Shown: positions 2,682 through 16,418 of the stretch, piece after piece
Layout of the letters: the number at the start of each line of letters is the position of its first letter
How positions within the stretch are numbered: the first letter of the stretch is position 1
From: Alphaproteobacteria bacterium
GTDB taxonomy: Bacteria > Pseudomonadota > Alphaproteobacteria > MPNO01
Reading direction: 5' to 3'
Assembly (NCBI GenBank): GCA_964291675.2
Contig: OZ219866.1
Location: 29,408 to 53,407, forward strand
Length of the DNA stretch: 24,000 bases
Position numbers and translations under genes: made by a program
Notes under the pieces: model-generated
Databases searched by the model: none
Told to the model about the DNA's origin: nothing
Seen by the model: the letters and a program-made list of their open reading frames with translations, nothing else

Positions 2682-2699
2682 CCGCCTGAGTTGCCCCGA

Positions 2700-3042: not shown

Positions 3043-3165
3043 TGCAGAACCGCGACCACTGGGCATGTACGAAGTCACGGTGCAATCTGCGTAATCACGC
3101 ACGCGCTTTGGAGTTTACCGCAACCATTTACGGCGCGCCCCTTCCCCATCTCAGCGGCATCCGGA

Positions 3166-4800
3166 CTACCGGATACGAAACCGATTCCGCAACGCCAGCA
3201 ACAACAAGAATAGCAGCGCCGTGGACCCGACCGTCTGCACAACTCCGAGAAATGATATTGCACTTGGCACCAATGCCACGCATCCATCGCCAATACCATA
3301 AAGACTGGAATGAAATGACGGAATCCTGTCACCCAAACCGGAGAATGCTGGCAAACTTCGGTGGGTGGATAGTGCAAGCGCGGCTATCCAGGGCTCAACA
3401 AACTCAGACCCGGAGCACCTCCTCGACATGTCCATGCCATCCACATCAGGGCGGATCGTCAGATAGAGTGCCCAAAATGCAAGCAACCAGATCAGCCAGC
3501 ACACAAGCGGACGAAATACCGACCGCCCAAAATCTGAAAGCAACTGATAGAGTACACCGAACCAGAAGAACGCATGCCAGGGTTTATCTGTAATCCAGCG
3601 TGAGGTCAGCATCTCCTCTCGAAAAAAAAACAGCTCACGCTGATGATCGTGACCTTGGGTTGCAAGCCGCTTCAAGGTTCGCCAGCGTACTCCCAGTTCT
3701 CTCCTTTGTTGTTTCAGCTCCTGCCATTTTTCTCCGGCATCTGCATTGGAATTTCTTTTGAATGCGTTCGAGAGCGCAGCACGGAACAGCCCGTTCTCAT
3801 TCCGTGCCTGAATTTCAAAATTGTCCAAACGAGGAGCTTCCACAAAGGTCGCCTGGTCAAAGTTCGGCACGTCCGAAAAGGAGGCATTGGCCATGGTGAA
3901 GGCTGATCGTGCCTCAACTGCCTGAAAGCTCACACGACCTCGATACTTTGTATGGTCGAATATCGCATATCTCCCAAAGCGCGCAGCAGAGAACGCTGCG
4001 TCCCCCTCGAAGGTGCAATATTCAAACCGAGCTCCACCTTTGAAGAAGGCATTGTTGAACCGGGCCATTTGCTGAAATACCACCCTTGCGAACCAAGCCT
4101 CGCCATCGAAGATTGCACTTTCGAACCGAACCGCACCGCTGAACGACCCAAAACTTGCGTCACCTCCAAAATGGGCATGCATGAAGAAGCTCTGATCTTC
4201 AAGTCTTGCTTCACGATAGTGGACATTTCCCTTGAAATAGGCATTCTCAAACGTAACGCCATCCTTGAACGATGCATCAAAGTATGAGTCAATTCCCTTG
4301 CATGAAATGGAATGGAACATGGCATAGTTGTGGAAAGTCGATTCTTGAAAAAACACAATTCCCCGGAATGATGACTTGCTAAAATTGGTTGTTCCTTTGT
4401 GGTCTGTTTTCCTGAAGTCTGCGGTGCTTCGAAATGTCGACTTTCCAAAGTGTGCATCACCTTCAAAACTAGCTTCTTCAAACCACGTATCCTGACCAAA
4501 ATCAGTCCCAATAAAACATATCTCGTTCTTGAACACCGCCTGCTTGAACTTGGCCTCTGCCTCGAATTTAGTATCAATAAACCATGAGTTTCCTGAAAAA
4601 ACTGTACCGGAGAAATTGGCAGGACCAGGAAACGTAAATCCCGAGAACTCAGCGTTTCCGAACACATGGAAAGAAAAATCGACGCTTGCCTCTTTCTTCC
4701 ACTCATCACTATCCTTCTGCCGTGCAAGAAGGTCCGTGGCCCAAGCGTTCCACGAATCCCTTCCTTGACGGTACAATGCCAGCGATTGGTCCTTGTTCAT
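3166..4800 (-). CDS. Pentapeptide-repeat protein with C-terminal multi-TM membrane domain
   Basis: 544-aa ORF, visibly AT-richer than its flanks. Residues ~40-320 are continuous 5-residue periodic repeats (ANFSGTVFSGNSWFIDTKFEAEAKFKQAVF...; F/A at every 5th position), as in Pfam Pentapeptide PF00805. The C-terminal ~145 aa (nt 3166-3603) has hydrophobic helices (FFWFGVLYQLL, PLVCWLIWLLAFWALYLTI, AISFLGVVQTVGSTALLFLLLLAL) and two G-x-G-D motifs (SGLGD at nt 3328-3342; YGIGDG). Confidence 0.85.
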   Translation of the reverse strand: MNKDQSLALYRQGRDSWNAWATDLLARQKDSDEWKKEASVDFSFHVFGNAEFSGFTFPGPANFSGTVFSGNSWFIDTKFEAEAKFKQAVFKNEICFIGTDFGQDTWFEEASFEGDAHFGKSTFRSTADFRKTDHKGTTNFSKSSFRGIVFFQESTFHNYAMFHSISCKGIDSYFDASFKDGVTFENAYFKGNVHYREARLEDQSFFMHAHFGGDASFGSFSGAVRFESAIFDGEAWFARVVFQQMARFNNAFFKGGARFEYCTFEGDAAFSAARFGRYAIFDHTKYRGRVSFQAVEARSAFTMANASFSDVPNFDQATFVEAPRLDNFEIQARNENGLFRAALSNAFKRNSNADAGEKWQELKQQRRELGVRWRTLKRLATQGHDHQRELFFFREEMLTSRWITDKPWHAFFWFGVLYQLLSDFGRSVFRPLVCWLIWLLAFWALYLTIRPDVDGMDMSRRCSGSEFVEPWIAALALSTHRSLPAFSGLGDRIPSFHSSLYGIGDGCVALVPSAISFLGVVQTVGSTALLFLLLLALRNRFRIR

Positions 4801-4889
4801 ACGCTCAACTCTGCGGCAACTTCATCGTCAAGGGCTTGTAGGGATTGGTCTTGGCCTCAATGACTCTTGTCTCTGAGATTTACCAAGCT

Positions 4890-5440
4890 GCGACTTTCTA
4901 TTCATCCCTAACGGTTGCGACAAGGCTTCATGATCCGGGATCCCAGTGTCCCACCCGTAGGCCGCAGCGTCGAGCGTTACATGCGCGTCGGCGAGCCATT
5001 GGGGGCGGGCATTGTAGAGATTCGTCAACGTGCCGGCCTTGAGTTCCTTAGTTGTCCTCTCGTCGCGGCGACGGGGCGCTTGGAGTAGCCCGGTACCGGC
5101 TCGTCCACCCACACCACCCATTCGGGCGGGTTGGGCCAGCGGTCGCGCACTTCGACCAGCCGCCGCGCGGCGTTGGCGACGGCGCGGGGATCGCCGGCGT
5201 AGTCGGCCGCCGGGATAGTGGGGGAGACGCCGTCCGGGAAGGGGAAGGTCTCGAAGGTCGTGGTCCGCGTGTAGCGCGGATCGTTGCCCTTGCCGAGCCA
5301 CGTCCCCAGCCGCAGCGACCATGCCTCGTGAAACCGGCTGTGGAGTATGCCGAAGGTGGTGTCGTCGTCGCGCGCTACGACGATGAGCTGATGGTCCGGA
5401 CAGATCCGCCAGGGTCTCGATGCCGTCGGGACGGACTTGC
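4890..5440 (-). pseudogene. C-terminal remnant of an MmeI-like (type IIL/IIG) N6-adenine DNA methyltransferase/restriction enzyme, frameshifted and 5'-truncated
   Basis: One minus frame (ORF 5025..5576) reads LIVVARDDDTTFGILHSRFHEAWSLRLGTWLGKGNDPRYTRTTTFETFPFPDG...DPRAVANAARRLVEVRDRW. After a frameshift near 5040-5060 a second frame (ORF 4828..5859) continues LKAGTLTNLYNARPQWLADAHVTLDAAAYGWDTGIPDHEAL. The motifs F-E-T-F-P-F-P and RTLTNLYN..P.WL..AH..LD.AV..AYGW are typical of the MmeI-family C-terminus. No methyltransferase catalytic or N-terminal nuclease part is present. Edges are approximate. Confidence 0.7.
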
Positions 5441-6261
5441 GAGCGGCCATTCCCGATATTGGGGTGCAGGCGACGGATCCATCCGCGACGGATGCGCTGC
5501 AGCTGACCCTGGCGCTGGACGGATGTCGCATCAAGATCGAGGTCTCTCCGGTCTCGCGCGGCACGGTGTGGCCCACCGAGATGCGGGAGGTTGTCGCGAC
5601 GGTCGAAGAGAGCCTCGGCTACTCCGAGAACCGGTTCCTGTCGTTCAACGATGTCTATGCAGGCGCGTCCCGCTCCGTCCTCGCCATGACCCACGGTCTT
5701 CACGACTTCAGTGATCTTTCTCCGACCCGGGAACGCAAACAACTCGAAAACGACCTGCGCAGTCAATATGACGAGTATTTCAACGAGGATCGGGGCGAGT
5801 GGGATGCCGACCCCGTCTACACGGCGGAGGAAGCAAATCGGGAAGCCAACCCTCACCATCGCTACCGACTTTTCACCTTCAGTAATTTCCTTACCACCCT
5901 CGACATGGTCTCAAAATTTCAGGACACCATCGAAGAAATCCTCGCTGACGCCCATGCGGGGTCGGTCCTCCTCATGATTGGCGCCACGGGCGGTTGCTAC
6001 CCAACGATCCGAGAGCGTGTTGCCAAGTTGGCGGAGGTCGGTCGTTTTCGACATCACCACGGCATCTCCGCCCAGGCAGGCGCAGATGAGACGTTCGAGC
6101 AACGGTTACGCGAAGAAATCCGCTCTTTCTACCACCGTCTCAAGCGATTGGCAGTCGACTTGCCCGCAAATGGACCAGTTGGCGCCAAGCTCCAAAGCGA
6201 ACTGGAAAACCATCGTCCGATGACGTTCAATAGCAGCACAGTCCTTGCATTTCGGAAGTGA
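5437..6261 (+). pseudogene. Chimeric ORF: internal fragment of an AbiEii/AbiGii-family nucleotidyltransferase (to ~5715) fused in frame to an unrelated, AT-richer C-terminal segment of unknown function
   Basis: The first ~90 codons read LALDGCRIKIEVSPVSRGTVWPTEMREVVATVEESLGYSE.RFLSFNDVYAG....L......LHDFSDL. This parallels the central I-K-I-E-V-N...RG ... L-S-F-E-D-L-Y-A-G-K...RDLFD region of AbiEii toxins (PF08843). The N-terminal NTase motif is absent. From ~5715 both composition and sequence change (RYRLFTFSNFLTTLDMVSKFQDTIEEILADAHAGSVLLMIGATGG...), and I recognise no family. Confidence 0.5.
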
Positions 6262-6382
6262 TTCGGATTGCAGTTCATCGAATCGGCACGGCCCAATCCA
6301 AATGCGCTCCTTTCTCTGTCCAACCACATCGTGTCGTGATACACTGTCGGACGATCCATCCTATTGACCGACGATTACTCAC

Positions 6383-7009
6383 ATGACGCCCGCGCTCACG
6401 ACGTCTCAGAAAGATCGGGCTGTCGCCCTTCTCAAGGTCCACGGCCCCATGCGTGGCATCGAGCTCAGCGACGCCGGCATCCACCCGGAAACCCTCGCGC
6501 GCATGCTCAAGGACCAGACCCTCACCCGCGTCACCCGCGGCCTCTACCAGCTCGCCGATGCCGAAGTGACGGCACCCCACAACCTCGCCGAGGTTGCGAA
6601 GCTGGTACCCCAAGGCGTTATCTGCCTCGTCTCCGCCCTTCAGTTCCACGAACTCACGCTCCAGATGCCCGGCCGGGTCTGGCTTGCCATAGCTTCAAGA
6701 GCGCGAAAGCCGAAGTTCCACTATCCCCCGACCCGAGTCGTGCGGTTTGGCCCGCGGGCCCTTTCCCTCGGCGTGCAGACTCACACCGTCGACGGCGTGT
6801 CCGTGCCCATTTTCGATCCAGCCAAGACGGTCGTCGATTGTTTTCGGTTCAGACAGCACGTTGGTCTCGATGTCGCGCTCGAAGGTCTCCACAACGTCGT
6901 GAGGTCCGGTAAGGCCAAACCGGCGCAGATCGTTGACTACGCCCGCGATATCCGCATCTGGTCCGTCCTCCGGCCCTATCTGGAAACGGTGGTCGCCGAT
7001 GGCGCGTGA
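6383..7009 (+). CDS. abiEi: Type IV toxin-antitoxin AbiEi-family antitoxin / transcriptional regulator
   Basis: 208-aa ORF. The N-terminal wHTH-like region ends in the TRVTRGLYQL motif. This is followed by VICLVSALQFHELTLQMP and a C-terminal domain typical of AbiEi. Its stop (7007-7009) overlaps the start of the next gene. Confidence 0.85.
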   Translation: MTPALTTSQKDRAVALLKVHGPMRGIELSDAGIHPETLARMLKDQTLTRVTRGLYQLADAEVTAPHNLAEVAKLVPQGVICLVSALQFHELTLQMPGRVWLAIASRARKPKFHYPPTRVVRFGPRALSLGVQTHTVDGVSVPIFDPAKTVVDCFRFRQHVGLDVALEGLHNVVRSGKAKPAQIVDYARDIRIWSVLRPYLETVVADGA

Positions 7010-7922
7010 ACCGAAAAATGTCGCAGCGTCAGTACGCGCGCAGCTGCAAAACCTCGCCAGGGAGCAACAGGCCAATTTCCAGCGCGTGCTTACCCGATAC
7101 GCTCTCGAAAGGTTTCTCTTCCGACTCAGCGTCTCGCCTCACAAGGAGCTCTTCGTCCTCAAGGGCGCCATGCTCTACGCCGCATGGCTCGAAGATCCGT
7201 TCCGCACGACCCGCGACCTCGACCTGCTCTCCCTCGTCGACCGCGAGACGACGCCCCTCCTTGAGACAATTCGCGACGTCTGCGCTCAGCCAGTCGCGGA
7301 CGACGGATTGCGCTTCGATACCGAGAACATCTTCGCAGCGCCGTTTGACGAGGAACGCACCCATGGCGCCTTTCGGGTCCGCACCTCGGCCCAACTCGGA
7401 ACCGCCATTGCCCCGGTCCAAATCGATGTCGGTTTCGGAGACACCGTCACCCCTGGCCCTCTGGAGCTCGAGTATCCCGTCCTTCTCGATCAGCCGACGC
7501 CCACCCTCTACGCGTACCCACGAGAAACCGTGGCCGCCGAGAAGTTCGAAGCCATCGTTGCACTCGACCTCGCGAACAGCCGCATGAAGGACTTCTACGA
7601 CGTTCTCGCGATGTCGCGGCTCTTCTCGTTCGATGGAATGACCCTCGCCGCCGCGATTCGGGCTACCTTTGAAACGCGTGGGACCACCATTCCACACGAA
7701 CGCCCTCCGCCCCTCACGCACGCATTCTCGGACGACCCCCAAAAGCTCCGGCAATGGCGATCGTTTCTCACCCGAGACCCGCTGTTGATCGACGAACCTG
7801 ACCTGCGCACCGTCATTCGTGAAGTCGGGGACTTCATCATGCCGGCAGCCCTCGCGGCCCTCGATGATCGCCACATCGCTGGACAGTGGACGTCCGACAG
7901 CGGTTGGGGGCTGGCCACATGA
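6999..7922 (+). CDS. abiEii: Type IV toxin-antitoxin AbiEii-family nucleotidyltransferase toxin
   Basis: ATG at 6999 is in frame with ORF 6933..7922 and overlaps the abiEi stop by 11 nt (ATGGCGCGTGA). MAREPKNVAASVRAQLQNLAREQQANFQRVLTRYALERFLFRLS...FVLKGAMLY...TRDLDLL is the canonical AbiEii (PF08843) N-terminus and NTase motif. Confidence 0.85.
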   Translation: MAREPKNVAASVRAQLQNLAREQQANFQRVLTRYALERFLFRLSVSPHKELFVLKGAMLYAAWLEDPFRTTRDLDLLSLVDRETTPLLETIRDVCAQPVADDGLRFDTENIFAAPFDEERTHGAFRVRTSAQLGTAIAPVQIDVGFGDTVTPGPLELEYPVLLDQPTPTLYAYPRETVAAEKFEAIVALDLANSRMKDFYDVLAMSRLFSFDGMTLAAAIRATFETRGTTIPHERPPPLTHAFSDDPQKLRQWRSFLTRDPLLIDEPDLRTVIREVGDFIMPAALAALDDRHIAGQWTSDSGWGLAT

Positions 7923-8060
7923 CCGCGCCGAATTGGGATGCCATTTTCATCAGCCGCACCAACCCGGAGGATAACGCATTTGCCTTCTGGCTCGGGGCGC
8001 GCTTGATGGCGGCCGGGTACGAGCTCCAGGCAGGCGTGCTCAAACAACGCGGCGGCCAAG
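7919..8060 (+). pseudogene. TIR-domain-like N-terminal stub, translationally coupled to abiEii, degenerate and truncated
   Basis: ATG 7919 overlaps the abiEii stop (ATGA, 7919-7922). MTAPNWDAIFISRTNPEDNAFAFWLGARLMAAGYELQAGVLKQRGGQAW parallels bacterial TIR N-termini (D-V-F-I-S-H...ED-N-x-F...W-L...L...G-Y-x-V-W-x-D...L-x-G-G-x-x-W), but with SR in place of SH and LQAG in place of VWxD. Similarity is lost after ~8060 and the rest of ORF 7886..8320 is low-complexity. The right edge is approximate. Confidence 0.35.
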
Positions 8061-8166
8061 CCTGGCAATGCTTGCTAGGGGCGCGGCCACTCCAGTACTC
8101 CGCTCAGCAAACGGAATGGGCGAGAAGCCGCTTGCCGATCCCTTCCTCCAGGAAACGACCTCACGA

Positions 8167-10365
8167 TCAATTCTCCTCCTCCCCTCTACTGCCGCGATCA
8201 TCTGCTTCACAAAATCGTCTAGCACCGACTAGCACCGCGTCTATCCGCCGACGCTCGTCCTCCGTCAGCTTCGGATCATTACAATGCTTCATCCCTGCAT
8301 CAACAAGATCATCAAGCTGATACCACCTCGCGTCAGGCCGCTCCTCCATAGAATAGTGCCGCCCGGTTTCGTCAACGCTATAAGCCACTAGTCCCTTACA
8401 CACCTTTGCCATAAACGTTGCGTTGTCCGCCATACCCTCTGTTAGCCAAGTCTTCGCCGCTTCGCAATCCGATAAGTGACTCCAGCATCTAACGATGTTG
8501 TAGTAAAATGGAGCGTCCGCGAGAGTATTTTCCTTGTAACCCGCATCAATTCTTTTCATGAGCAGCTGACCAATTGCTTCGAAGTCCTCTTTTGAAATAC
8601 ACGCTTCATCTCGCGGTGGGTTGCCAAAAACACCAAGTTCCTCGCCCCGCGACACGTAGATGTCAGCGAGGAAGCTGGGCGATCCCTCCCTCTCAAATGC
8701 TTCAATCAAAAACTGACCTGATTTTCTAATTCCCCATTGCTTCAAAATATCGTAAATCAGAAATCCGATCATCGATCGCGGCGGCAACTCCATCATGCTG
8801 AACACTTGATCAACAGATATTACCTCTTCGCCAACGCGAAACAACGCATACAGTATTGCTGACGTCCCCCGCATTGGGCTCCTTCCGGAGTACTGCACTC
8901 GCAGCTCGTGAAGCACCTTTGAGATCATCGGCACTCCACGGCTGTCAGACATCACCAGATACCCTCGGAGTATCTTTTCGATGTCCTCGACATTGGCCTC
9001 CGGGGACACCAAATCGCCGATATCTGCCAACCTAACCGCATCCGCTGATGGGTGCAGACCAAAATAACTGTCGTAGCCGGCCTCGCAACCGATGCCTCTT
9101 CTTCTCTCCACCTCGTCATAGGCGTCTGCCCCGAACGACGCATCGCTGTCAGACCACTTTGCCAATTGCGGGAATAGGACCGTGATCACCCCTAGCACTT
9201 GCGAATATTCTCCTTCTGGAACTCTTCGCTTCAGATCTTCGACGACTTGTTCCCTCACACCATCGTCAGCGAGCTGAAAACGGCCTTCGTTGAATAGGAA
9301 GTTTCGATTGTCACGAAGCCACGAAAACGCTTCCGCGTCAAACAATCGCACTCCCTCCATCCCAAGCATATCTTGCGGATCAATCTCATTGCACAGTGCC
9401 GGCCACGCAAATTTGACTGCGTTCGATAACCGTACGACGTCACGAGGTGACTTCACCCATCGATGCACACCGTCCCGTAACAACAACTGCCAACGAAACG
9501 AATTTTCTGTTTGGCGCACCAAAAACGCTGTTTCTCGATCAAGCATTCTCAGCAGTGTATTCTTCGGCGGTTGAGGCAGTTCCAATTCCTGTTGAATTAT
9601 CTTTTCACCAAACGACGGTCCCGTACCGGCAGCATCGCTGTCCAGAACGTTCCACACAATCTTGCGGTCATAGGATAGCAAGTAAATTACGTTGGGAAGT
9701 TGGCCAATGCTCTTTACCATTTTGAAAATTAGCTTTACTTCAGCGTCCTCTAACCGATCAATATCGTCAATGGTGACAAGAAATCGTTTGTCGCTATTTC
9801 TTAGTAATTCCCTTAAGTTTTCGTAGGCCTTTTGCAAAGAGGGCTCTTCCACGAAACGGTCAATCACGGAACCAAGAGATTTCTTGGCAACGCGTCCAGC
9901 GACGCGGGACATCACTCCTGCGCTGGGATCTATCGTGATTGCAACAGTCGCCGCGGCGTCTACCAACCCGTTAGAAGCATCTGACACAGCGTTACGATTT
10001 CGCTCAAGCCATCTTCGGCTTCTAGATTTCTTTGGCCCAAGATATTCTGACAACACCTTAAAGAATGCCGCAATCAGATCATGATGTCCTGTTACAAGCC
10101 AAGGTCGGAAATCAATATGTACAAGCGGGCTTTCACCGCTTTCTTTGTTGAATCTGTGAATGTACTCTATCACGAAGTTTAGAATTGTAGATTTGCCAGC
10201 GCCCCATGCACCGTGAATACCGATGACGTAGCCATTTGGTGCCTCTAGGGCAACGACTGTTCTTGCAATGCTCTCGGCGAACTGTGCATAGCCAAGTCGA
10301 TCATCTTCAGGCATTAGCTTTGGTGCATCATCGCCCAATATAAAATTGAATTCCGTGTTCGTCAT
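8167..10365 (-). CDS. KAP-family P-loop NTPase (no obvious transmembrane insert)
   Basis: 732-aa ORF, AT-richer than its flanks. The N-terminus DRLGYAQFAESIARTV...YVIGIHGAWGAGKSTILNFV (Walker A at nt 10186-10212) and the Walker B FLVTIDDIDRLE match the KAP NTPase (PF07693) pattern. The insert between Walker A and B lacks clear hydrophobic helices. Confidence 0.85.
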   Translation of the reverse strand: MTNTEFNFILGDDAPKLMPEDDRLGYAQFAESIARTVVALEAPNGYVIGIHGAWGAGKSTILNFVIEYIHRFNKESGESPLVHIDFRPWLVTGHHDLIAAFFKVLSEYLGPKKSRSRRWLERNRNAVSDASNGLVDAAATVAITIDPSAGVMSRVAGRVAKKSLGSVIDRFVEEPSLQKAYENLRELLRNSDKRFLVTIDDIDRLEDAEVKLIFKMVKSIGQLPNVIYLLSYDRKIVWNVLDSDAAGTGPSFGEKIIQQELELPQPPKNTLLRMLDRETAFLVRQTENSFRWQLLLRDGVHRWVKSPRDVVRLSNAVKFAWPALCNEIDPQDMLGMEGVRLFDAEAFSWLRDNRNFLFNEGRFQLADDGVREQVVEDLKRRVPEGEYSQVLGVITVLFPQLAKWSDSDASFGADAYDEVERRRGIGCEAGYDSYFGLHPSADAVRLADIGDLVSPEANVEDIEKILRGYLVMSDSRGVPMISKVLHELRVQYSGRSPMRGTSAILYALFRVGEEVISVDQVFSMMELPPRSMIGFLIYDILKQWGIRKSGQFLIEAFEREGSPSFLADIYVSRGEELGVFGNPPRDEACISKEDFEAIGQLLMKRIDAGYKENTLADAPFYYNIVRCWSHLSDCEAAKTWLTEGMADNATFMAKVCKGLVAYSVDETGRHYSMEERPDARWYQLDDLVDAGMKHCNDPKLTEDERRRIDAVLVGARRFCEADDRGSRGEEEN

Positions 10366-10799
10366 TGTGACATGTCTACCTGATCGTCCCTATGTATTGA
10401 TCCAACTTCATAGTTCGTGCATCTCACAGCGGAATACCACCGGAAGTCTGTTGAGTGCCCAATCTCGGGTATGCGTCGCTCAAAGTCCTTGGTCCCCTTA
10501 TTCAGCGATTGTCATCACATAGGAATCCGCCGATTTCAACCCAACGTCTCTTGTCACCGTTCCCCGCGTTCCTTCGGCCCGAAAGGAGAGCCAAGGGATC
10601 TTACAAGTACCACGAAATTTATCCCTTCGGGAATTCAAACCTCGCGAACTTTAGAAGCGGCGCTACGTAGAATCGTCGGGCTGGAGCGAAACTCAGCTCT
10701 GTCGTAGTGAATCTTCACCCGCGCGTCGGACAGGAAGAGCTGGAGAATGACATCGGCGAGCGGCGGTGAGACGGCGGTACTTGTGTTCGGGTCCATTCC

Positions 10800-11372
10800 T
10801 CAAGGAATGGATATTCCAAGCCTCGTGAGCGTCGCGATGTCCATGCGCCCGGTTTGCGGAATCCCCTCGGATCGCTGAAAGGCCTTCAGCGCGGCGCGAG
10901 TCTTGGGCCCCAGCAGGCCATCGATATCCCCGTTGTAGAGGCCTCGACGCATCAGGGCCGCCTGAACCCGGACCACCATTGTCGACACGTCCTGCGGGGT
11001 CGCTTTGGGAATCGTCCGCTCGATCCGCGGCGCAGCCTTGGGAATCACCGACGGGGCCGGGCTCGACGGCGGTGACTGATATTGCGGTTGTGGCGCCGGC
11101 GCGGAAGGGGCCTGTCGCACTCCGCCGCTGCTCGACCGGTGACTCCGGTGACTGCCGTGGGAACTATGGCTCCTGTGCGCCGCATACCGGTCCTCGGCCG
11201 TCGCATTCAGCGTATTCGGCAATAGGACCGGCGCCCTGTCGGGATTGCCAGACGCCTCCAAGTCTTCGCCAATTGCGGCGGCGGTATTGGCTCCCAACGC
11301 CGCCGTCGTCATGCCCCCAGCTGCCAGTGCTGGCCCACGCAGAAGCCGCCAAACCCTACCGCGCCATGTCAT
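10800..11372 (-). CDS. hxsA: His-Xaa-Ser repeat protein (HxsA-like precursor) with signal peptide and C-terminal peptidoglycan-binding (PG_binding_1) domain
   Basis: 190-aa ORF with GAGGG about 10 nt upstream of ATG 11372. The N-terminal signal-like region is WRLLRGPALAAGGMTTAALGANTAAA. Five perfect tandem H-x-S triplets (HRS HSS HGS HRS HRS) were verified at nt 11133-11177. A Pro/Ser/Ala-rich linker follows. The C-terminus VVRVQAALMRRGLYNGDIDGLLGPKTRAALKAFQRSEGIPQTGRMDIATLTRLG matches PF01471. It lies immediately downstream of two radical-SAM genes. Confidence 0.7.
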   Translation of the reverse strand: MTWRGRVWRLLRGPALAAGGMTTAALGANTAAAIGEDLEASGNPDRAPVLLPNTLNATAEDRYAAHRSHSSHGSHRSHRSSSGGVRQAPSAPAPQPQYQSPPSSPAPSVIPKAAPRIERTIPKATPQDVSTMVVRVQAALMRRGLYNGDIDGLLGPKTRAALKAFQRSEGIPQTGRMDIATLTRLGISIP

Positions 11373-11397
11373 GTATGTTGTCCCTCACCGTCTAGCC

Positions 11398-12585
11398 CTA
11401 TCCGATCTGTCCCACGGTCTCCCTCACCGGCTTGATAGCACGGCTCATCCACTTGCCGTCTATCGACCGAAAGAACCCGCAACATTCGTCTCGCAGCATG
11501 CATCCGACACATTCCGGCAGATAGGTGTTCTTCCAGTCCGAGATGCTTTGTCTGGAATATGGCCGAAGTTCTACCGGCACCGTGCAAAGCGGAAAGTTGT
11601 ACAAGGAAACGCTCATTCCCCGATTTGCGAGAAAGAATACCGCATCGCGCAGCGCGTCCATGCAGTCGACCGGATCGATCCATATCTTCTCGTAGTTGGC
11701 CCGCGCGAAACCGATCGGCTCCAGTCCCATGAACGCGACATGCCCTGCAAAGGTCAGGTTCCGGAATATGAAATACGCCAGTTCGCCGAGCCGTTCGACG
11801 TTGGGTCGCTGCACGACAACGCGGATTTCGATATCCGCCTCGTGCTTCGCCAGGTTGTGCAGCCCGGCCAGCGTCTCCTCCCAAGCGGTGTCGGCCTGGA
11901 CGATGTAGTCGTGGATTTCCGGGCAGTCAGAGTAGAGCGGGATACCCCAAGTCAGGTTCGGGTGCCTGACAGCACAGGCCGTCCGGGCGAACGCCTCTTC
12001 GGCGAACCGCCTTCCGTTGGAGAGGATATGAAGGCCGGTGTCCGGTAGGAGGCGCCGAGCCCGATCCAGAACCACGAGCAGGTCGTCGCCAAGCAGGGTC
12101 GGCTCGCCGCCGCTGATGCCGAGCTGTGCCTCGTCCCGGTCCACCAGAGAAATCGTCTCCAGCATCTCGCCGACCAACCATCCGTCATCGACATCACGCG
12201 GGGGCTGAGAGCACATGATGCAGAAGCTGTTGCACCGTTCCGTCGCGAGCAGAGTGTTGCTGTTAGACCCGCGCCGGTAGAGAACCGATACTCGGGAACT
12301 CCCCTCCACCAGACGAATGACGTCACCCGGCGCAACGACACCCGGCGTGCCGATCCGGTCGACTGCGATCCCGGCGGCCGAATCGCCTTCGAGAGCGCCG
12401 CCCGTCACGACGCCGGCCCAGGGCCCATCCACCTTCTCCGGCTCCTTGCCCTCCCGCCGATCGAGCCAGATCAGGCAACGTTCCGGGTCGATATCGGATC
12501 GAACGGCTTCGTTCGCCGTGAGGACTTTCACGATCGCCCGGTCTTGCACACCTTGGACTCGGGCCCGGGTATGAAGAGGCAGCAT
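11398..12585 (-). CDS. hxsC: Radical SAM maturase, HxsC-like
   Basis: 395-aa ORF. CNSFCIMC (CX3CX2C, nt 12211-12234) is followed by SQPP, then GISGGEPTL (SAM-binding GGE). A C-terminal Cys cluster reads LPECVGCMLRDECCGFF. ATG 12585 lies 3 nt after the hxsB stop. Size and pairing with a SPASM rSAM and an HxS-repeat protein fit the HxsC family as I recall it. Confidence 0.8.
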   Translation of the reverse strand: MLPLHTRARVQGVQDRAIVKVLTANEAVRSDIDPERCLIWLDRREGKEPEKVDGPWAGVVTGGALEGDSAAGIAVDRIGTPGVVAPGDVIRLVEGSSRVSVLYRRGSNSNTLLATERCNSFCIMCSQPPRDVDDGWLVGEMLETISLVDRDEAQLGISGGEPTLLGDDLLVVLDRARRLLPDTGLHILSNGRRFAEEAFARTACAVRHPNLTWGIPLYSDCPEIHDYIVQADTAWEETLAGLHNLAKHEADIEIRVVVQRPNVERLGELAYFIFRNLTFAGHVAFMGLEPIGFARANYEKIWIDPVDCMDALRDAVFFLANRGMSVSLYNFPLCTVPVELRPYSRQSISDWKNTYLPECVGCMLRDECCGFFRSIDGKWMSRAIKPVRETVGQIG

Positions 12586-12588
12586 GCC

Positions 12589-14094
12589 CTACACCCGGTA
12601 ACCGGCTGCGGACAGCTCGGATGCGTCTCGCCGGGTCATCCAGGAAAGGAACACCCGCAGCACATCGGGATCTCGTCCCGCCAATAGTTCGAAGACGATT
12701 CGGAACAGGCCGGTATGGCGGTGGCAGAACTCGCTTGTCGGCCGATGACCGACGGGGTTTCCCTGCGTCGCCACGTTGAAAACGGGATCGGCGCCGCAAT
12801 AGGGAACGAACGCGCATTCCGAGCAGACCGGCAGCTTCTCTGCATCGCCCGCGTCCTCGATGATCTTCATGGCGTTCGATTGCCGGAGATCGGCCAACGA
12901 ATCATGGACCGAGCCCATTCGGAAGCGGTCGTCGCCCATCTCCGCCAGCATTCGGCCCTCGTCCGAAACGTAGACCCCGCCATCGTAGTTGTAGACGAGC
13001 ACGTTCCTGCCTGCGGCCGCGGGCGATTGCAGGTCGACATAGTCGGTCGGAAACGGTGTCAGGATTCTCGTCAACAGCAGGGTCGCGTACGATTCCTCGA
13101 TCCTCCGTCCCGCGAGGTTGACCTCGATCAGATAGTCCAGGGCCTCGCGGTAGAACCGCAGAAATTCGTCGCTCGTGTATCCCAGCTTGCGCCGGCTCTT
13201 CACGGCAAAGCCGAAGGGACTGATCGGCCGAAGCGAGATCGAGTCGAACCCCAGCTCCAGATAGGTATCCACGGTCTCGCGCGGATACCCCAGGCCATGC
13301 CGAGTGATCGTCGCCAACGCTGCCACGCGATCATGACCGCAGATCGCTCGCGCCCGCGCCATTCCCTCCACCGTTCGCTTGAACGAATCCCGCATCGCAT
13401 TGGGTCGGTTCGCGTCGTGAACGTGCTCCGGACCGTCGAGCGAGGTGGACAATTCGATCCGGTGGTCCCGGCAGAAGGCCAGCATGTCGTCCGTCATCAG
13501 GTGCAGGGTCGTCGCCATCACGAACCGCACCATCCTTTCGGCCACCCGAGCGCGCCGGGCCGCTTGCTTGACGATCCGCCGCACGAGGGGAAAGGCCAGC
13601 GCAGACTCACCGCCCTGAAACTCGATGGTCAGTGTCTCCGCCTTCGATTCGAACACCCGATCCAGAGCGGCATCCGCGGTCGCGTCGTCCATGTCGAATC
13701 CGCGCTCCCACGGGCGACGCGGCGACACCTGGCAGTAGTGGCAGCGATGGTCGCATCTCAGGGTCAGAACAAGAATGTGCAGCGCGGGGTCTTCCGTCGC
13801 GAAGTGCTTCCGCGTCCGTTGCTGCGCGGCCAGCCCCGGAAGAAACGGACCCCGCTCGGCATCGCAAACGATCTGCCGCGTCCGCAGATCGCGGTAGATC
13901 TCCGTTCCGGGTTCAAGCGTACCGTCGGTCAGCTTGCGGAAATCGTTCTCGGCCAGAAACAGATATTCCCCGACCGCAGACGTCACCAGAACCTGGCCCG
14001 GAAGAGTCGGCAGCCTGGTGTGTCTGAAAGGCAGGACCTCGTACGCTCGGGAGGGCGCCGCAAATTCCTTCGGATCGCGAAAGGCCGCGGTCAT
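12589..14094 (-). CDS. hxsB: Radical SAM/SPASM-domain maturase, HxsB-like
   Basis: CDHRCHYC (CX3CX2C, nt 13732-13755) is followed by FQGGESAL. The C-terminal SPASM-like Cys motifs are CSECAFVPYCGADP...EFCHRH. The start is chosen at ATG 14094 (MTAAFRDPKEF...). The ORF-track extension to 14322 is Arg/Trp-rich and looks non-coding. ATG 14142 is an alternative start. Confidence 0.8.
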   Translation of the reverse strand: MTAAFRDPKEFAAPSRAYEVLPFRHTRLPTLPGQVLVTSAVGEYLFLAENDFRKLTDGTLEPGTEIYRDLRTRQIVCDAERGPFLPGLAAQQRTRKHFATEDPALHILVLTLRCDHRCHYCQVSPRRPWERGFDMDDATADAALDRVFESKAETLTIEFQGGESALAFPLVRRIVKQAARRARVAERMVRFVMATTLHLMTDDMLAFCRDHRIELSTSLDGPEHVHDANRPNAMRDSFKRTVEGMARARAICGHDRVAALATITRHGLGYPRETVDTYLELGFDSISLRPISPFGFAVKSRRKLGYTSDEFLRFYREALDYLIEVNLAGRRIEESYATLLLTRILTPFPTDYVDLQSPAAAGRNVLVYNYDGGVYVSDEGRMLAEMGDDRFRMGSVHDSLADLRQSNAMKIIEDAGDAEKLPVCSECAFVPYCGADPVFNVATQGNPVGHRPTSEFCHRHTGLFRIVFELLAGRDPDVLRVFLSWMTRRDASELSAAGYRV

Positions 14095-14381
14095 TCCACG
14101 TCCAGCAGACAAGCGTTCATCTCCCTCATCGGTGCACCCCATTGAATCTCGAATCGGTTCGTTCCGGTCCGGCCCTTGGGACCAGCGTGGACTTCCTATA
14201 CCCCTGCCTTCCCACCTTCGCACCCTCTTCCTCAGAACCCGCCGAACCGAAGCAACTGACCACAGCCAGAGCGGTACCCAACCAGCTGATTCGCCGCCCG
14301 GACGATCACTCATCCCTTGCACCGCTGGGCAGGTGGGTTAGCTTGACCATCGTTCAGGACAGATGGTGCTGCGCGGGGCCC

Positions 14382-14819
14382 ATGACGATTGCTCCCATCA
14401 ATACAGGAGTGCCGCGGTGCCGGATGCTGCTTTGCGCTCAACTGATCGCGGCTATGGTCATCGCTATCGCCGCCCAGCTTCCCGCCCACGCCGACGCCCC
14501 TCCGCCCGCCGTCGCCGCTCCGTCTGAGAAATCCGCCACGACCCTCAGCCACCGCAACGAGCGTAGTACCCCACGGGTCTCGGTCTTGCCTGCCAGTCCC
14601 GCGATTGCTCATGATCGCGAACAAACTGGAGATCGCCTCTCCGTCGGTCTCGCCAAAGCCGTCCTGCTACGCCTCGGATATCCGGTCGGCCGCTTGGACG
14701 ACCGAACCACCGCGAAATTCAAGGCCGCGCTATTCCGGTACCAGCGCGCCCACGGCATCCCGTCCTCCGGTACTCTCGACGAGGCAACACTCCGGTCACT
14801 GGGAATCACCCCGAAATGA
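14382..14819 (+). CDS. Secreted protein with degenerate PG_binding_1 domain; repeat-less paralogue of the HxsA-like C-terminus
   Basis: In-frame ATG at 14382, or at 14424 (MLLCAQLIAAMVIAIAAQLPAHA|DAPPP, a signal peptide). The C-terminus VGLAKAVLLRLGYPVGRLDDRTTAKFKAALFRYQRAHGIPSSGTLDEATLRSLGI aligns position by position with the PG-binding domain of 10800..11372. It is divergent from hxsB, and its stop overlaps the next start (ATGA at 14816-14819). Confidence 0.6.
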   Translation: MTIAPINTGVPRCRMLLCAQLIAAMVIAIAAQLPAHADAPPPAVAAPSEKSATTLSHRNERSTPRVSVLPASPAIAHDREQTGDRLSVGLAKAVLLRLGYPVGRLDDRTTAKFKAALFRYQRAHGIPSSGTLDEATLRSLGITPK

Positions 14820-15199
14820 AGCGCATCCTGCTTCCCCTGAATGCATTGGCCGTTCTCATCGTCCTCGCCTTCGGCGCCGACCGTTACTTGGCGCCCGTGA
14901 TCGCGAAAGCGATCTATGCCGAGGATTACAGGAATCTGATGTATCAGTGCGACCACGTCATGCGCGAACACTTCATCGCCAAGCAAATGGTGCTGGCCTC
15001 GACGACCGAAGAGACGATTCGCAACCTGGAGGCCGCCGAAGTCGGTCTCACCACCTGCCACGAATACGACAAGCTGCGAAAGGAGATGATCCGCTGGGGG
15101 CTTTCCGAGAACTCGCTTGCCCGCATCGGTCTTGAAGCCATCGAAGAACGAGCCACGGACATCCGCAAGTTCGTCGAGATCCATGAAATCCGCTACTAG
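14816..15199 (+). CDS. Small membrane-anchored or secreted hypothetical protein
   Basis: 127-aa ORF. The N-terminal hydrophobic helix is LLPLNALAVLIVLAFGA. It has two Cys residues. It is translationally coupled on both sides: an ATGA overlap upstream and a 17-nt overlap with the peroxidase start at 15183. No family recognised. Confidence 0.45.
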   Translation: MKRILLPLNALAVLIVLAFGADRYLAPVIAKAIYAEDYRNLMYQCDHVMREHFIAKQMVLASTTEETIRNLEAAEVGLTTCHEYDKLRKEMIRWGLSENSLARIGLEAIEERATDIRKFVEIHEIRY

Positions 15200-16418
15200 G
15201 CTCCTTCTTGCCGCCATCGCACTCACGATCGGGACCGCGGCCAGTGCCGCCGACAAGTCGTTTTCCGAGATTCTGCGTAATGCCGCACTTGCCAACGGCC
15301 TTCTGCCGCCCAAACAGCTCTTCGTAGACACCGATCAGCATCTGGCGGCCATCGGCAGGGCATTCTTCGAAAGCAAGAACCTGAGCCTGAACGGCCGGAT
15401 TGCTTGTCGGACGTGCCATCTCGACGCCTTCAGCTCGGGCGACGGGCTGCCGAATGCCGTGGGCATCTTCGGCACCGGCGAGGGACCGGTGCGAGCATTC
15501 AGCGAGGGGAAGATCGTCCCTCGGAATACTCTCCCGCTCTGGGGACGCGGGGGCCAGGGATTCGATGTCTTCTTCTGGGACGGGAAGGTCGACTTCTCCG
15601 GACAACGACCGCTGAGCCAGTTCGGTGCCGATGTACCTTCATCCGATCCACTGTTGACCGCGGTCCACCTTCCACCCGTCGAGATTCGCGAGATGATCGA
15701 CGACGACGCCGATGTATCGCGATTCAAAACCGAGTCCCCGGCGCAAGCTCACCGCCTGTACGCGCGGATCCTGACTCGCCTTCTCGAGACGGAACAAGCA
15801 GCAATGGAGGACCTCGCCACCAACCTAAACAAACAGCCTAACGAACTTGCCTTCAGCGATGTGGCACGATCGATTGCCGCCTTCATACGTTCGGAGTTCC
15901 GCCTTCACGATACCGACTTTCATCGGTTCGTCTTTGGAGACGGCCCACTTTCCCGTGACGAAATCCAAGGGGGGTTGATCTTTTATGGCAAGGGGAAGTG
16001 CGTCAATTGCCACACCGGACCTTATTTCTCGGACCTTCGGTTCCACGCCATTCCATTTCCACAGCTCGGATTTGGGAAGAACGGTTTTGGAATTGACTAC
16101 GGCCGCTTCAATGTCACCTTCGATCCTGACGATCTATACAAATTCCGCACGCCGCCACTCTTCAATGTCGCATCCACGTCACCCTATGGTCACTCCGGTT
16201 CTCTTTCGGTGCTTCGTGATGCAATAGTAGGCCATTTTGACCCTCTTCGAAATTTGGACACCGATGCGATGACCCCATTATCACGCCATGAGTACTACAA
16301 GAGAATGGCTGCGGTCGGTGCCGACTTCAGACTCTTCAGTGTCCTCACGGATCAAGAAGTTGCATTGGTCATTGAGTTCCTCAAGACGCTCAGCTTCTCT
16401 TCTCACGCTTCCAGATGA
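15183..16418 (+). CDS. Di-haem cytochrome c peroxidase / MauG-family protein (periplasmic)
   Basis: ATG 15183 gives the signal peptide MKSATRLLLAAIALTIGTAASAA. Two haem-c motifs are present: CRTCH (nt 15405-15419) and CVNCH (nt 15999-16013). Family hallmarks are CHTGPYFSD, FRTPPLFNV and SPYGHSGS (PF03150 CCP_MauG). Confidence 0.85.
   Translation: MKSATRLLLAAIALTIGTAASAADKSFSEILRNAALANGLLPPKQLFVDTDQHLAAIGRAFFESKNLSLNGRIACRTCHLDAFSSGDGLPNAVGIFGTGEGPVRAFSEGKIVPRNTLPLWGRGGQGFDVFFWDGKVDFSGQRPLSQFGADVPSSDPLLTAVHLPPVEIREMIDDDADVSRFKTESPAQAHRLYARILTRLLETEQAAMEDLATNLNKQPNELAFSDVARSIAAFIRSEFRLHDTDFHRFVFGDGPLSRDEIQGGLIFYGKGKCVNCHTGPYFSDLRFHAIPFPQLGFGKNGFGIDYGRFNVTFDPDDLYKFRTPPLFNVASTSPYGHSGSLSVLRDAIVGHFDPLRNLDTDAMTPLSRHEYYKRMAAVGADFRLFSVLTDQEVALVIEFLKTLSFSSHASR

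What the first reader, a model, noticed from the sequence alone, without database searches (positions are those of the whole stretch)
10800..14094. His-Xaa-Ser radical-SAM maturation cluster in non-canonical order (hxsB-hxsC-hxsA) with no HxsD seen
Two tightly coupled radical-SAM genes lie 3 nt apart. Their CX3CX2C clusters were verified at 13732-13755 and 12211-12234, and the first gene has a SPASM-type C-terminus. A 25-nt gap separates them from a secreted protein with five perfect tandem H-x-S triplets (11133-11177). This is the signature of the Hxs system, which to my knowledge is defined only by comparative genomics, with no known product, chemistry or phenotype. The repeat has no Cys, so the modification cannot be a sactionine- or ranthipeptide-type thioether. 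His/Ser-directed cross-linking, epimerisation or C-methylation by two different rSAM enzymes would be new chemistry. I saw no LLNDYxLRE-type HxsD ORF in the window. The substrate gene is last rather than first.
Basis: partly seen in the sequence, partly recalled or inferred. Interest (0 to 1): 0.8.

Follow-up and report, generated by a model that had tools for sequence, protein, structure and literature searches.

The report
HxsD-less HXS anti-phage system variant
This is a real His-Xaa-Ser (HXS) radical-SAM gene cluster, a system shown in 2026 to block phage DNA entry, so it is no longer a mystery; here it is an uncharacterised subtype that lacks the small HxsD protein and has three extra periplasmic genes next to it, including a MauG-like di-heme enzyme.

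Summary
hxsB, hxsC and hxsA lie on the minus strand, 3 and 25 nt apart. All three proteins pass NCBIfam's curated cut-offs for HxsB, HxsC and HxsA by wide margins.

Three parts of the interpretation need correcting:
1. B-C-A is the canonical order. Published surveys find D-B-C-A in 99.6% of systems.
2. The system now has a known phenotype. PMC13128918 (Nat Commun 2026) shows anti-phage defence by blocking DNA entry, with a +8 Da modification on the SHRSS motif, which is conserved here.
3. It encodes a second peptidoglycan-binding paralogue, a TIGR03982 'His-Xaa-Ser system protein' and a TIGR03981 'HXS-associated MauG-like' di-heme enzyme.

The absence of HxsD is real within the window, with positive controls passing. 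HxsD is also absent from all ten related loci that carry TIGR03982. These loci form one HxsB clade spanning Alpha- and Gammaproteobacteria and Verrucomicrobia. All six genes are under purifying selection, and the block sits in a defence island with AbiE and a PifA-like gene.

Verdict: a known system in an uncharacterised architectural variant. Interest is moderate.

The parts
12589..14112 (-). hxsB, a radical SAM maturase. The likely start is TTG at 14112 (507 aa).
   Evidence: TIGR03978 scores 551.3 bits against a cut-off of 370. The ATG at 14094 is ATA in L001 and L002, while TTG at 14112 and its Shine-Dalgarno-like sequence are conserved.
13732..13755 (-). HxsB CX3CX2C motif (CDHRCHYC), the radical-SAM [4Fe-4S] site
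12796..12825 (-). HxsB C-terminal CX2CX5C (auxiliary-cluster cysteines), with a further Cys at 12724-12726. This is an abbreviated SPASM-like region.
   Evidence: TIGR04085 scores 22.1 bits, below its cut-off of 27.
11398..12585 (-). hxsC, the second radical SAM maturase. It starts 3 nt after the hxsB stop codon.
   Evidence: TIGR03977 scores 384 bits against a cut-off of 267.9. The MLPLHT start is conserved in relatives.
12211..12234 (-). HxsC CX3CX2C motif (CNSFCIMC)
11479..11511 (-). HxsC C-terminal cysteine cluster (C359, C362, C368, C369)
   Evidence: These align with the conserved C..C.....C(C)GFF block in all HxsC sequences compared.
10800..11372 (-). hxsA, the HxS-repeat effector precursor. 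It has a signal-like N-terminus, five HxS repeats, a Pro/Ser-rich linker and a C-terminal PG_binding_1 domain (about 10818-10976).
   Evidence: TIGR03979 scores 137 bits against a cut-off of 121.65. PF01471 scores 58.2 bits over aa 133-185.
11133..11177 (-). Five tandem HxS triplets: HRS HSS HGS HRS HRS
11130..11144 (-). SHRSS motif at the end of the repeat array. In E. coli HxsA this is the site of the +8 Da modification.
   Evidence: Coordinates. Motif role from PMC13128918. The motif is conserved in most HxsA homologues compared, including this subtype and Klebsiella.
14113..14381 (.). Divergent intergenic region between hxsB and the accessory operon. It is too short to hold an hxsD, and none is in it.
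   Evidence: No consensus promoters or terminators above chance. No HxsD match.
14382..14819 (+). Second peptidoglycan-binding protein ('PGB2'), an HxsA paralogue. It has a signal peptide but no HxS repeats.
   Evidence: PF01471 scores 32.2 bits. TIGR03979 matches only the C-terminal half, at 33.7 bits, below cut-off. It is conserved at this position in L001, L002, L021 and L023-L026.
14553..14606 (+). Conserved PGB2 motif RNERSTPRVSVLPASPAI (consensus RN-E/H-x-S-T/S-P-x-x-S-V/I-LP-x-SPAI)
   Evidence: Alignment of 8 orthologues from three phyla. Coordinates.
14816..15199 (+). TIGR03982-family His-Xaa-Ser system protein, 127 aa. It has an N-terminal membrane helix, invariant Cys45 and Cys81, and a conserved C-terminal HEIRY (Arg126 and Tyr127 nearly invariant).
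   Evidence: TIGR03982 scores 110 bits against a cut-off of 40. 248 homologue clusters found. Conservation. AlphaFold2 gives pLDDT 85.8, all-helical.
15183..16418 (+). HXS-associated MauG-like di-heme enzyme. It has a signal peptide and two CxxCH motifs (15405-15419 and 15999-16013). It overlaps the TIGR03982 gene by 17 nt.
   Evidence: TIGR03981 scores 368.8 bits against a cut-off of 340. PF03150 matches. The best solved relative is 6e1c, a di-heme enzyme, at E 6e-23, followed by bacterial cytochrome c peroxidases (bCcPs) and MauG. Motif coordinates.

Best explanation
The locus is an HXS-family anti-phage module of an HxsD-less subtype.

Shown by homology:
- Two cytoplasmic radical-SAM enzymes, HxsB and HxsC, sit next to their substrate HxsA.
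- HxsA keeps the five basic HxS repeats, the terminal SHRSS motif and a peptidoglycan-binding domain.

Inferred from the E. coli system:
- HxsB/HxsC covalently modify and process HxsA.
- HxsA is exported and anchored on the cell wall.
- Its basic repeat array then stops incoming phage DNA.

Specific to this subtype (inferred):
- HxsD, the HxsC partner that is essential in E. coli, is missing.
- A conserved, divergently transcribed trio of envelope proteins is present instead. They are a repeat-less HxsA paralogue with its own conserved motif, a membrane-anchored TIGR03982 protein and a MauG-like di-heme oxidase.
- I propose the trio acts on or with HxsA in the periplasm, for example by haem-dependent oxidative completion of the modification or by assembly of the wall-anchored barrier. 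The cytoplasmic rSAM step would then work without HxsD.
For: Family identity:
- HxsB, HxsC, HxsA, TIGR03982 and TIGR03981 all score above their curated cut-offs.

Function of the family:
- PMC13128918 reports 110 of 113 coliphages inhibited, a block of DNA entry, a +8 Da change on SHRSS and a requirement for the PG-binding domain.
- The core YAAHRSHSSH...SHRSSSGG is conserved between this HxsA and the Klebsiella HxsA.

Absence of HxsD:
- No TIGR03976 or NF038315 match at E<=0.1 in 142 stop-to-stop segments covering window 1-19323.
- Positive controls score 53-94 bits.
- A local HxsD HMM finds HxsD upstream of hxsB in 10 other loci, but nothing in any frame of the whole window or of the subtype's loci.

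The subtype is real and maintained:
- The same six genes occur in L001, L002, L021 and L023-L026, and a co-linear B-C-A-TIGR03982-MauG-like form occurs on Rhodobacterales plasmids.
- The subtype forms a single HxsB clade.
- dN/dS is 0.05-0.38 for all six genes.

Envelope location of the trio:
- Signal or anchor sequences and two CxxCH motifs are read directly from the sequences.

Defence-island context:
- AbiEi/AbiEii, a PifA-like KAP NTPase and a BrxP/SspD-like PAPS reductase are nearby.
- Related loci sit among toxin-antitoxin (TA), restriction-modification (RM), integrase and transposase genes.
Against: - No experiment exists on this subtype.
- HxsB is only about 32% identical to the Klebsiella/E. 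coli-type enzyme, so transferring the phenotype is an inference.
- In E. coli all four genes, including hxsD, are essential, and I found no replacement. TIGR03982 is not homologous to HxsD (hhalign probability 0.4%), and HxsB/HxsC carry no fused HxsD-like domain.
- An hxsD elsewhere in the genome cannot be excluded from a 24-kb window.
- A sister lineage (Roseomonas, L003) lacks both HxsD and the MauG-like trio. The trio is therefore not a simple one-for-one substitute.
- Known MauG-family substrates are Trp residues (my own recall of the MauG and MbnH literature). Trp is absent from the PGB2 sequence and lies only in the N-terminal signal-like region of HxsA.
- PADLOC v2 (2023) has no HXS model, so defence status rests on one paper.
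Confidence: 0.7

Rival explanations
1. This is a machine for making a protein-derived cofactor or a metal-binding protein, not an immune system. The rSAM pair and the MauG-like oxidase would turn HxsA (or PGB2) into a redox-active or metal-chelating periplasmic protein. The parallels are MauG forming the tryptophan tryptophylquinone (TTQ) cofactor and QhpD acting in quinohemoprotein amine dehydrogenase maturation.
For: - MauG-family enzymes build protein-derived cofactors in the periplasm (my own recall, not checked here).
- The NCBIfam short name of TIGR03981 is 'SAM_quin_mod', and HxsB scores 74.6 bits on the QhpD family TIGR03906.
- His-rich repeats could bind metals (inference).
Against: - The E. 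coli homologue has a demonstrated anti-phage phenotype.
- This locus and its relatives sit in defence or mobile islands, not next to dehydrogenase or metal-transport genes.
- Basal relatives carry a lipoprotein nuclease in the operon, which fits a DNA-directed function.
- The two readings are not mutually exclusive.
Confidence: 0.15
2. This is a decaying remnant. Having lost the essential hxsD, the cluster would be non-functional.
For: hxsD is essential in E. coli. Some related copies look broken: hxsB is truncated on the Thioclava plasmid, and gene calls are fragmented in L020 and L022.
Against: - All six ORFs are intact, with catalytic Cys motifs and haem motifs in place.
- dN/dS is 0.05-0.38 against three HxsD-less relatives.
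- The architecture is conserved across three phyla.
Confidence: 0.05
3. The divergent trio (PGB2, TIGR03982, MauG-like) is an unrelated neighbour. HxsBCA alone would be the system.
For: - The trio is a separate transcription unit.
- Roseomonas has hxsB, hxsC and an HxS-repeat peptidoglycan-binding protein (scoring below the HxsA cut-off) without hxsD and without the trio.
Against: - TIGR03982 and the MauG-like gene were next to hxs genes in all ten loci examined, in two different arrangements (divergent and co-linear).
- PGB2 is a paralogue of HxsA.
- NCBIfam curators named both families from this association.
Confidence: 0.07

Closest known systems
HXS anti-phage system of E. coli / Klebsiella (hxsD-hxsB-hxsC-hxsA; PMC13128918, Nat Commun 2026)
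   Same: - Paired rSAM enzymes HxsB and HxsC with the same cysteine motifs.
- The same B-C-A order and tight coupling.
- HxsA with a signal-like N-terminus, five basic HxS repeats, a terminal SHRSS motif followed by SSGG, and a C-terminal PG_binding_1 domain.
- A defence-island or mobile context.
   Different: - No HxsD, which is essential and binds HxsC in E. coli.
- An extra conserved divergent operon: PGB2, TIGR03982 and a MauG-like di-heme enzyme.
- HxsB is only about 32% identical to the Klebsiella type.
- The hosts are Alphaproteobacteria-like rather than Enterobacterales.
Co-linear hxsB-hxsC-hxsA-TIGR03982-MauG-like operons on Rhodobacterales plasmids (Tritonibacter NZ_CP136707, Thioclava NZ_CP149519)
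   Same: HxsD-less, with TIGR03982 and a TIGR03981 MauG-like gene attached. TIGR03982 and the MauG-like gene overlap by the same 17 nt in Tritonibacter.
   Different: - All genes lie on one strand and there is no PGB2 paralogue.
- TIGR03982 is only 35-39% identical.
- HxsB falls on a different branch of the tree.
MauG / MbnH / BthA family of di-heme enzymes (PDB 3l4m, 6e1c)
   Same: Periplasmic, with two c-type haem motifs and the CCP_MauG fold. The family carries out oxidative post-translational modification of a partner protein.
   Different: - Sequence similarity is low: E 6e-23 to 6e1c and about 1e-9 to MauG.
- It scores below cut-off on the MauG and MbnH models (53 and 90 bits).
- The substrate is unknown, and no conserved Trp is evident in the candidate partners.
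SPASM/twitch rSAM peptide maturases (PapB, AnSME, QhpD, SCIFF maturase)
   Same: HxsB aligns to these full length at 59-99 bits. It has an N-terminal rSAM core plus a C-terminal auxiliary-cluster region.
   Different: - All score far below their cut-offs.
- Only 4 of the 7 SPASM cysteines are present.

Membership tests
HXS (His-Xaa-Ser) system | HxsB radical SAM maturase (TIGR03978 equivalog) | tested here: met
   551.3 bits against a cut-off of 370. The next-best family scores 99 bits. CX3CX2C is present.
HXS (His-Xaa-Ser) system | HxsC radical SAM maturase (TIGR03977 equivalog) adjacent to HxsB | tested here: met
   384.0 bits against a cut-off of 267.9. The gap to hxsB is 3 nt.
HXS (His-Xaa-Ser) system | HxsA: tandem His-Xaa-Ser repeats plus a peptidoglycan-binding domain (TIGR03979) | tested here: met
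   137.0 bits against a cut-off of 121.65. Five HxS repeats and SHRSS are present. PF01471 scores 58.2 bits.
HXS (His-Xaa-Ser) system | HxsD small protein (TIGR03976, LLNDYxLRE), normally immediately upstream of hxsB and essential in E. coli | tested here: not met
   - No TIGR03976 or NF038315 match at E<=0.1 in 142 segments of at least 62 aa covering 1-19323.
- Controls score 53-94 bits.
- The local HMM finds nothing in any frame (segments of at least 25 aa) of the whole window at E<=20.
- The rest of the genome was not available.
HXS (His-Xaa-Ser) system | Gene order (D-)B-C-A | tested here: met
   B-C-A on the minus strand. This matches the canonical order in PMC13128918 and in L016 and L017.
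HXS (His-Xaa-Ser) system | Anti-phage phenotype, block of DNA entry, +8 Da modification of SHRSS | not testable with these tools
   Only the conserved SHRSS motif and the defence-island context could be checked.
HXS accessory module (NCBIfam TIGR03981 / TIGR03982) | TIGR03982-family small protein and TIGR03981 MauG-like di-heme protein next to hxs genes | tested here: met
   110 bits against a cut-off of 40, and 368.8 bits against a cut-off of 340. Two CxxCH motifs are present.
HXS variants HxsA3 / HxsA4 / HxsC4 (NF038309, NF038313, NF038332) | Score above the variant-specific cut-offs | tested here: not met
   32.6 bits against 65, 20.4 against 55 and 35.1 against 500.
SPASM-domain rSAM enzymes | SPASM domain with the 7-Cys motif (TIGR04085 / PF13186) | tested here: inconclusive
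   TIGR04085 scores 22.1 bits, below its cut-off of 27, at E 1.5e-4. No Pfam SPASM hit at E<=0.01. Only CX2CX5C plus one distal Cys is present.
MauG (TTQ biosynthesis) / MbnH | Score above the TIGR03791 or TIGR04039 cut-off | tested here: not met
   53.3 bits against 443.85, and 90.1 against 362.85. It is a relative of these families, not a member.

The most novel reading that the evidence does not exclude
The HxsD-less block forms a distinct HXS subtype: six genes here, and seven in basal relatives that put a lipoprotein SNase nuclease in the hxsD slot. In this subtype, maturation of the HxS effector would be finished, or its barrier assembled, in the periplasm. The players would be a MauG-like di-heme oxidase, a membrane-anchored TIGR03982 protein and a second wall-anchored paralogue carrying a conserved RNExSTP..SVLPxSPAI motif. 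This would be a haem-dependent second maturation step with no counterpart in the characterised E. coli system. In the nuclease-bearing relatives it would also couple capture of incoming DNA to its degradation.
Probability: 0.3. Interest if true: 0.65.

Novelty: new variant of a known kind. Interest (0 to 1): 0.4.

Why it matters
The radical chemistry behind the +8 Da mark on HxsA is still unsolved, as is the role of HxsD. The authors of the only functional study could not reconstitute the reaction. This subtype is a natural lineage that keeps HxsB, HxsC and HxsA under purifying selection without HxsD and adds a periplasmic di-heme oxidase. That makes it a ready comparison for three questions: what HxsD is needed for, whether the modification is completed outside the cytoplasm, and how a wall-anchored basic repeat stops phage DNA. 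For the scan itself, the main value is corrective. The cluster is not an orphan of unknown phenotype, and its gene order is ordinary.

Tried and rejected
I used stop-to-stop segments through an alignment id instead.
2. The Pfam scan for HxsD is not a valid test. The tool's Pfam copy lacks PF27806 and PF27798: TIGR03982 homologues carry precomputed PF27798, yet the window protein hit nothing.
3. The protein search with Aeromonas HxsD returned only close relatives. I built a wider HxsD profile from genomic loci instead.
4. I tested TIGR03982 as a disguised HxsD and rejected it. hhalign gives a probability of 0.4%, and the protein has a membrane helix.
5. I tested for HxsD fused to HxsB or HxsC and rejected it. 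There are no HMM hits and no clade-specific insertion in the HxsC alignment.
6. An AlphaFold2 model of TIGR03982 (pLDDT 85.8) searched against the PDB gave no match at E<0.8. The fold is uninformative.
7. I looked for an SNase remnant upstream of hxsB in the window and found none.
8. The promoter and terminator scan of 10300-16700 found nothing above shuffled expectation.
9. PADLOC has no HXS model. Only weak viperin-like rSAM hits appeared.
10. A literature search for TIGR03981 and TIGR03982 found no paper in the library mentioning them, and the HXS paper does not mention MauG or haem.


Full report
**1. The observation**

Every coordinate in the finding checks out. There are three co-directional minus-strand ORFs.
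- The first ends at 12589 and carries CDHRCHYC at 13732-13755.
- The second spans 11398-12585 and carries CNSFCIMC at 12211-12234.
- The third spans 10800-11372. Its product has no cysteine and reads HRS-HSS-HGS-HRS-HRS at 11133-11177.

The gaps are 3 nt and 25 nt. None of this is a chance pattern. NCBIfam equivalog models give HxsB 551.3 bits (cut-off 370), HxsC 384.0 (267.9) and HxsA 137.0 (121.65, E 7e-40). The next-best families score far lower: PapB at 99 bits for HxsB and ScmE at 43 bits for HxsC.

There are two small corrections.
- The ATG at 14094 is ATA in two ~90%-identical orthologues. A TTG at 14112, preceded by GAGGGAG, is conserved and gives 507 aa, the length class of the relatives.
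- The 'SPASM-type' end of HxsB is abbreviated. It has CX2CX5C plus one distal Cys, and TIGR04085 scores 22.1 bits against a cut-off of 27.

**2.

A second operon runs the other way, across a 269-bp gap upstream of hxsB. It holds three genes.
- 14382-14819 encodes a signal-peptide protein with a PG_binding_1 domain. It is a repeat-less paralogue of HxsA, and I call it PGB2. The HxsA model matches only its C-terminal half, at 33.7 bits.
- 14816-15199 encodes a 127-aa protein that passes TIGR03982, 'His-Xaa-Ser system protein' (110 bits against a cut-off of 40).
- 15183-16418 overlaps the previous gene by 17 nt. It encodes a signal-peptide protein with two CxxCH motifs that passes TIGR03981, 'His-Xaa-Ser system-associated MauG-like protein' (368.8 bits against 340).

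The six-gene block has 61% G+C, while its flanks have 50-51%. It lies in a defence island containing:
- AbiEi/AbiEii (251 and 384 bits on PADLOC models)
- a PifA-like KAP NTPase (287 bits)
- a Schlafen/AlbA_2 protein
- an MmeI-TRD-like fragment
- a BrxP/SspD-like PAPS reductase

**3. What is already known**

The claim that the system has 'no known product, chemistry or phenotype' is out of date. PMC13128918 (Nat Commun, March 2026) reports the following.
- The E. coli hxsD-hxsB-hxsC-hxsA operon protects against 110 of 113 coliphages by blocking genome entry.
- All four genes are essential.
- A +8.0 Da (+C/-4H-type) change maps to the SHRSS motif of the last repeat.
- HxsC binds HxsD.
- The PG-binding domain and every repeat are required.

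The same paper gives D-B-C-A as the order in 99.6% of systems and says HxsD is missing 'in a few cases'. The order B-C-A seen here is therefore canonical. I saw D-B-C-A myself on Aeromonas and Klebsiella plasmids. The window's HxsA keeps the core YAAHRSHSSH...SHRSSSGG, including SHRSS at 11130-11144.

**4. Is HxsD really absent?**

- I scanned 142 stop-to-stop segments of at least 62 aa covering window 1-19323, leaving out the frames of five of the genes already identified (the KAP NTPase gene, hxsA, hxsB, hxsC and the MauG-like gene). The set included the 81-aa extension upstream of hxsB. NCBIfam found no TIGR03976 (HxsD) or NF038315 (HxsD-like) match at E<=0.1.
- The same models recognise HxsD from Aeromonas (78.8 bits), Klebsiella (93.6) and two distant genomes (53.4 and 62.6).
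- A local HMM built from seven HxsD sequences was run without filters on all six-frame segments of at least 25 aa. It finds HxsD directly upstream of hxsB in ten other loci. It finds nothing at E<=20 in the whole window or in any locus of this subtype.
- The Pfam scan is not a valid test, because the tool's Pfam copy lacks PF27806.
- A copy elsewhere in the genome cannot be excluded from 24 kb.

**5. The subtype**

Relatives of HxsB and of the TIGR03982 protein show the same layout: hxsA, hxsC and hxsB on one strand, with PGB2, TIGR03982 and the MauG-like gene diverging from them. I found this in:
- two Alphaproteobacteria MAGs at about 90% identity (L001, L002)
- a 3.9-Mb contig (L021)
- a Nitrincola genome (L023)
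- a Limisphaerales MAG (L024)
- two metagenome contigs (L025, L026)

None of these has an HxsD, either by the precomputed PF27806 annotation or by my HMM. Two Rhodobacterales plasmids carry a co-linear version, hxsB-hxsC-hxsA-TIGR03982-MauG-like, which also lacks hxsD.

The comparison runs both ways. Ten HxsD-positive loci have no TIGR03982 or MauG-like gene within 8 kb.

In an HxsB tree the divergent-operon type is one clade. It is sister to a Roseomonas/Hyphomonadaceae branch that also lacks HxsD but has no trio, and it is nested among HxsD-positive lineages. The loss of HxsD therefore seems older than, and not strictly tied to, the gain of the trio.

In the four basal members (L023-L026), the slot immediately upstream of hxsB is occupied by a lipoprotein staphylococcal-nuclease homologue. 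The window has no trace of it.

All six genes are under purifying selection against HxsD-less relatives, with dN/dS 0.05-0.38. The block is therefore not a decaying remnant.

**6. The accessory proteins**

- **PGB2** has a motif conserved across three phyla, RNExSTPxxS(V/I)LPxSPAI, at window 14553-14606.
- **TIGR03982** has an N-terminal hydrophobic helix, invariant Cys45 and Cys81, and a conserved C-terminal HEIRY with Arg126 and Tyr127 nearly invariant. Its AlphaFold2 model is confident (pLDDT 85.8) and all-helical, but it has no informative PDB neighbour. It is not related to HxsD (hhalign probability 0.4%).
- **The MauG-like protein** is closest to the di-heme enzyme 6e1c (E 6e-23), then to bacterial cytochrome c peroxidases and MauG. 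It fails the MauG and MbnH equivalog cut-offs.
- **HxsB and HxsC** show no fused domain or clade-specific insertion that could stand in for HxsD.

**7. Mechanism**

The steps below are graded by how well they are supported.
- Shown by homology: there is a cytoplasmic rSAM pair plus an HxS-repeat protein with a wall-binding domain and the conserved modification motif.
- Inferred from E. coli: HxsB and HxsC modify and process HxsA, HxsA is exported and anchored on peptidoglycan, and its basic repeats stop incoming phage DNA.
- Inferred for this subtype, with low confidence: the three envelope proteins act on or with HxsA in the periplasm. The MauG-like haem enzyme could provide an oxidative step or cross-link.
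- Weakness of the last point: I cannot name the enzyme's substrate. By my own recall, known MauG-family substrates are tryptophans, and none is conserved in the obvious partners.

**8. Rivals**

- A cofactor or metal-protein maturation pathway unrelated to immunity. This is plausible from the MauG and QhpD analogies, but the E. coli phenotype, the island context and the nuclease in relatives argue against it.
- A dead remnant. The selection analysis and intact motifs argue against it.
- An unrelated neighbouring operon. Co-occurrence in all ten loci in two arrangements, and the HxsA paralogy of PGB2, argue against it.

**9. Novelty and score**

The core is a known system, and NCBIfam already names two of the accessory families. 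I found no paper in the searchable library that mentions TIGR03981 or TIGR03982, and the HXS paper says nothing about MauG or haem.

The points that go beyond what is recorded are:
- the apparent mutual exclusion of HxsD and the TIGR03982/MauG-like module
- the PGB2 paralogue and its motif
- the nuclease in the hxsD slot of basal relatives
- evidence that the HxsD-less form is maintained by selection

I file the locus as a new variant of a known kind, because one defining component was tested and is not present.

Noticed in passing
L023:6898-7515(-), L024:3738-4385(-), L025:6909-7562(-), L026:3753-4427(-); also L018:4547-5023(-): A lipoprotein staphylococcal-nuclease (SNase/thermonuclease) gene sits immediately upstream of hxsB in four basal members of the HxsD-less subtype. 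This is the slot hxsD occupies in canonical systems. A thermonuclease gene also lies near the Thioclava plasmid system. The window, L001, L002 and L021 lack it.
   Followed up: partly
An in-frame TTG at 14112, with GAGGGAG 8 nt upstream, is conserved in all four close relatives and gives 507 aa.
   Followed up: yes
window 14553-14606 (+): The second PG-binding protein carries a short motif, RNERSTPRVSVLPASPAI, conserved from Alphaproteobacteria to Verrucomicrobia. It is embedded in otherwise variable sequence. It could be a second modification or recognition site.
   Followed up: partly
window 8167-10365 (-): A KAP-family P-loop NTPase lies next to hxsA. It scores 286.7 bits on PADLOC's PifA model, the F-plasmid T7-exclusion protein family.
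   Followed up: partly
window 5437-7922 (+): A complete AbiEi/AbiEii toxin-antitoxin defence pair lies at 6383-7009 and 6933-7922 (251 and 384 bits on PADLOC). An AbiEii fragment precedes it at 5437-6261 (45 bits).
   Followed up: partly
window 1380-5859: Three further island genes: a Schlafen/AlbA_2-domain protein (1380-2681, +), a 544-aa pentapeptide-repeat protein (3166-4800, -), and a 343-aa ORF (4828-5859, -). The last matches only the target-recognition end of MmeI-type IIG restriction-methylases, so it is probably a remnant.
   Followed up: no
window 10800-16418 versus flanks: The six-gene HXS block is 61% G+C, between flanks of 50-51% (8167-10799 and 16419-19000). Beyond 19 kb, G+C rises to 64-73%. 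The window is a compositional mosaic, which suggests modules acquired separately.
   Followed up: partly
window 16577-18945 (-): Three consecutive low-GC ORFs (309, 207 and 271 aa) downstream of the MauG-like gene have no match in Pfam, NCBIfam or PADLOC. They may be another uncharacterised island cargo.
   Followed up: partly
window 19328-22200: A 415-aa protein with an N-terminal HU-type DNA-binding domain and a long unassigned C-terminal part lies at 19328-20575 (-). A PAPS-reductase-like protein (BrxP/SspD/DndC-like, weak) lies at 21289-22200 (+). A PAPS_reduct gene also lies near the HXS block in the closest relative, L020.
   Followed up: no
L020, L022, L018: Some related copies look damaged. 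Gene calls for hxsC, hxsA and the MauG-like gene are fragmented in L020 and L022; these could be long-read frameshifts or pseudogenes. On the Thioclava plasmid, hxsB is a 261-aa truncation.
   Followed up: no
L015 (Roseomonas mucosa plasmid p2-HV1) 4983-10322: A sister HxsD-less locus has hxsB, hxsC and an HxS-repeat PG-binding protein whose array ends in SHYS and which contains two Cys. It has no TIGR03982 or MauG-like gene. Instead, a 577-aa class I SAM-dependent methyltransferase is divergently transcribed upstream of hxsB.
   Followed up: no
tool libraries: The Pfam copy used by search_protein_families lacks PF27798 (TIGR03982 family) and PF27806 (HxsD), although both appear in the precomputed annotations of the protein database. 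Negative Pfam results for these families are therefore meaningless.
   Followed up: yes
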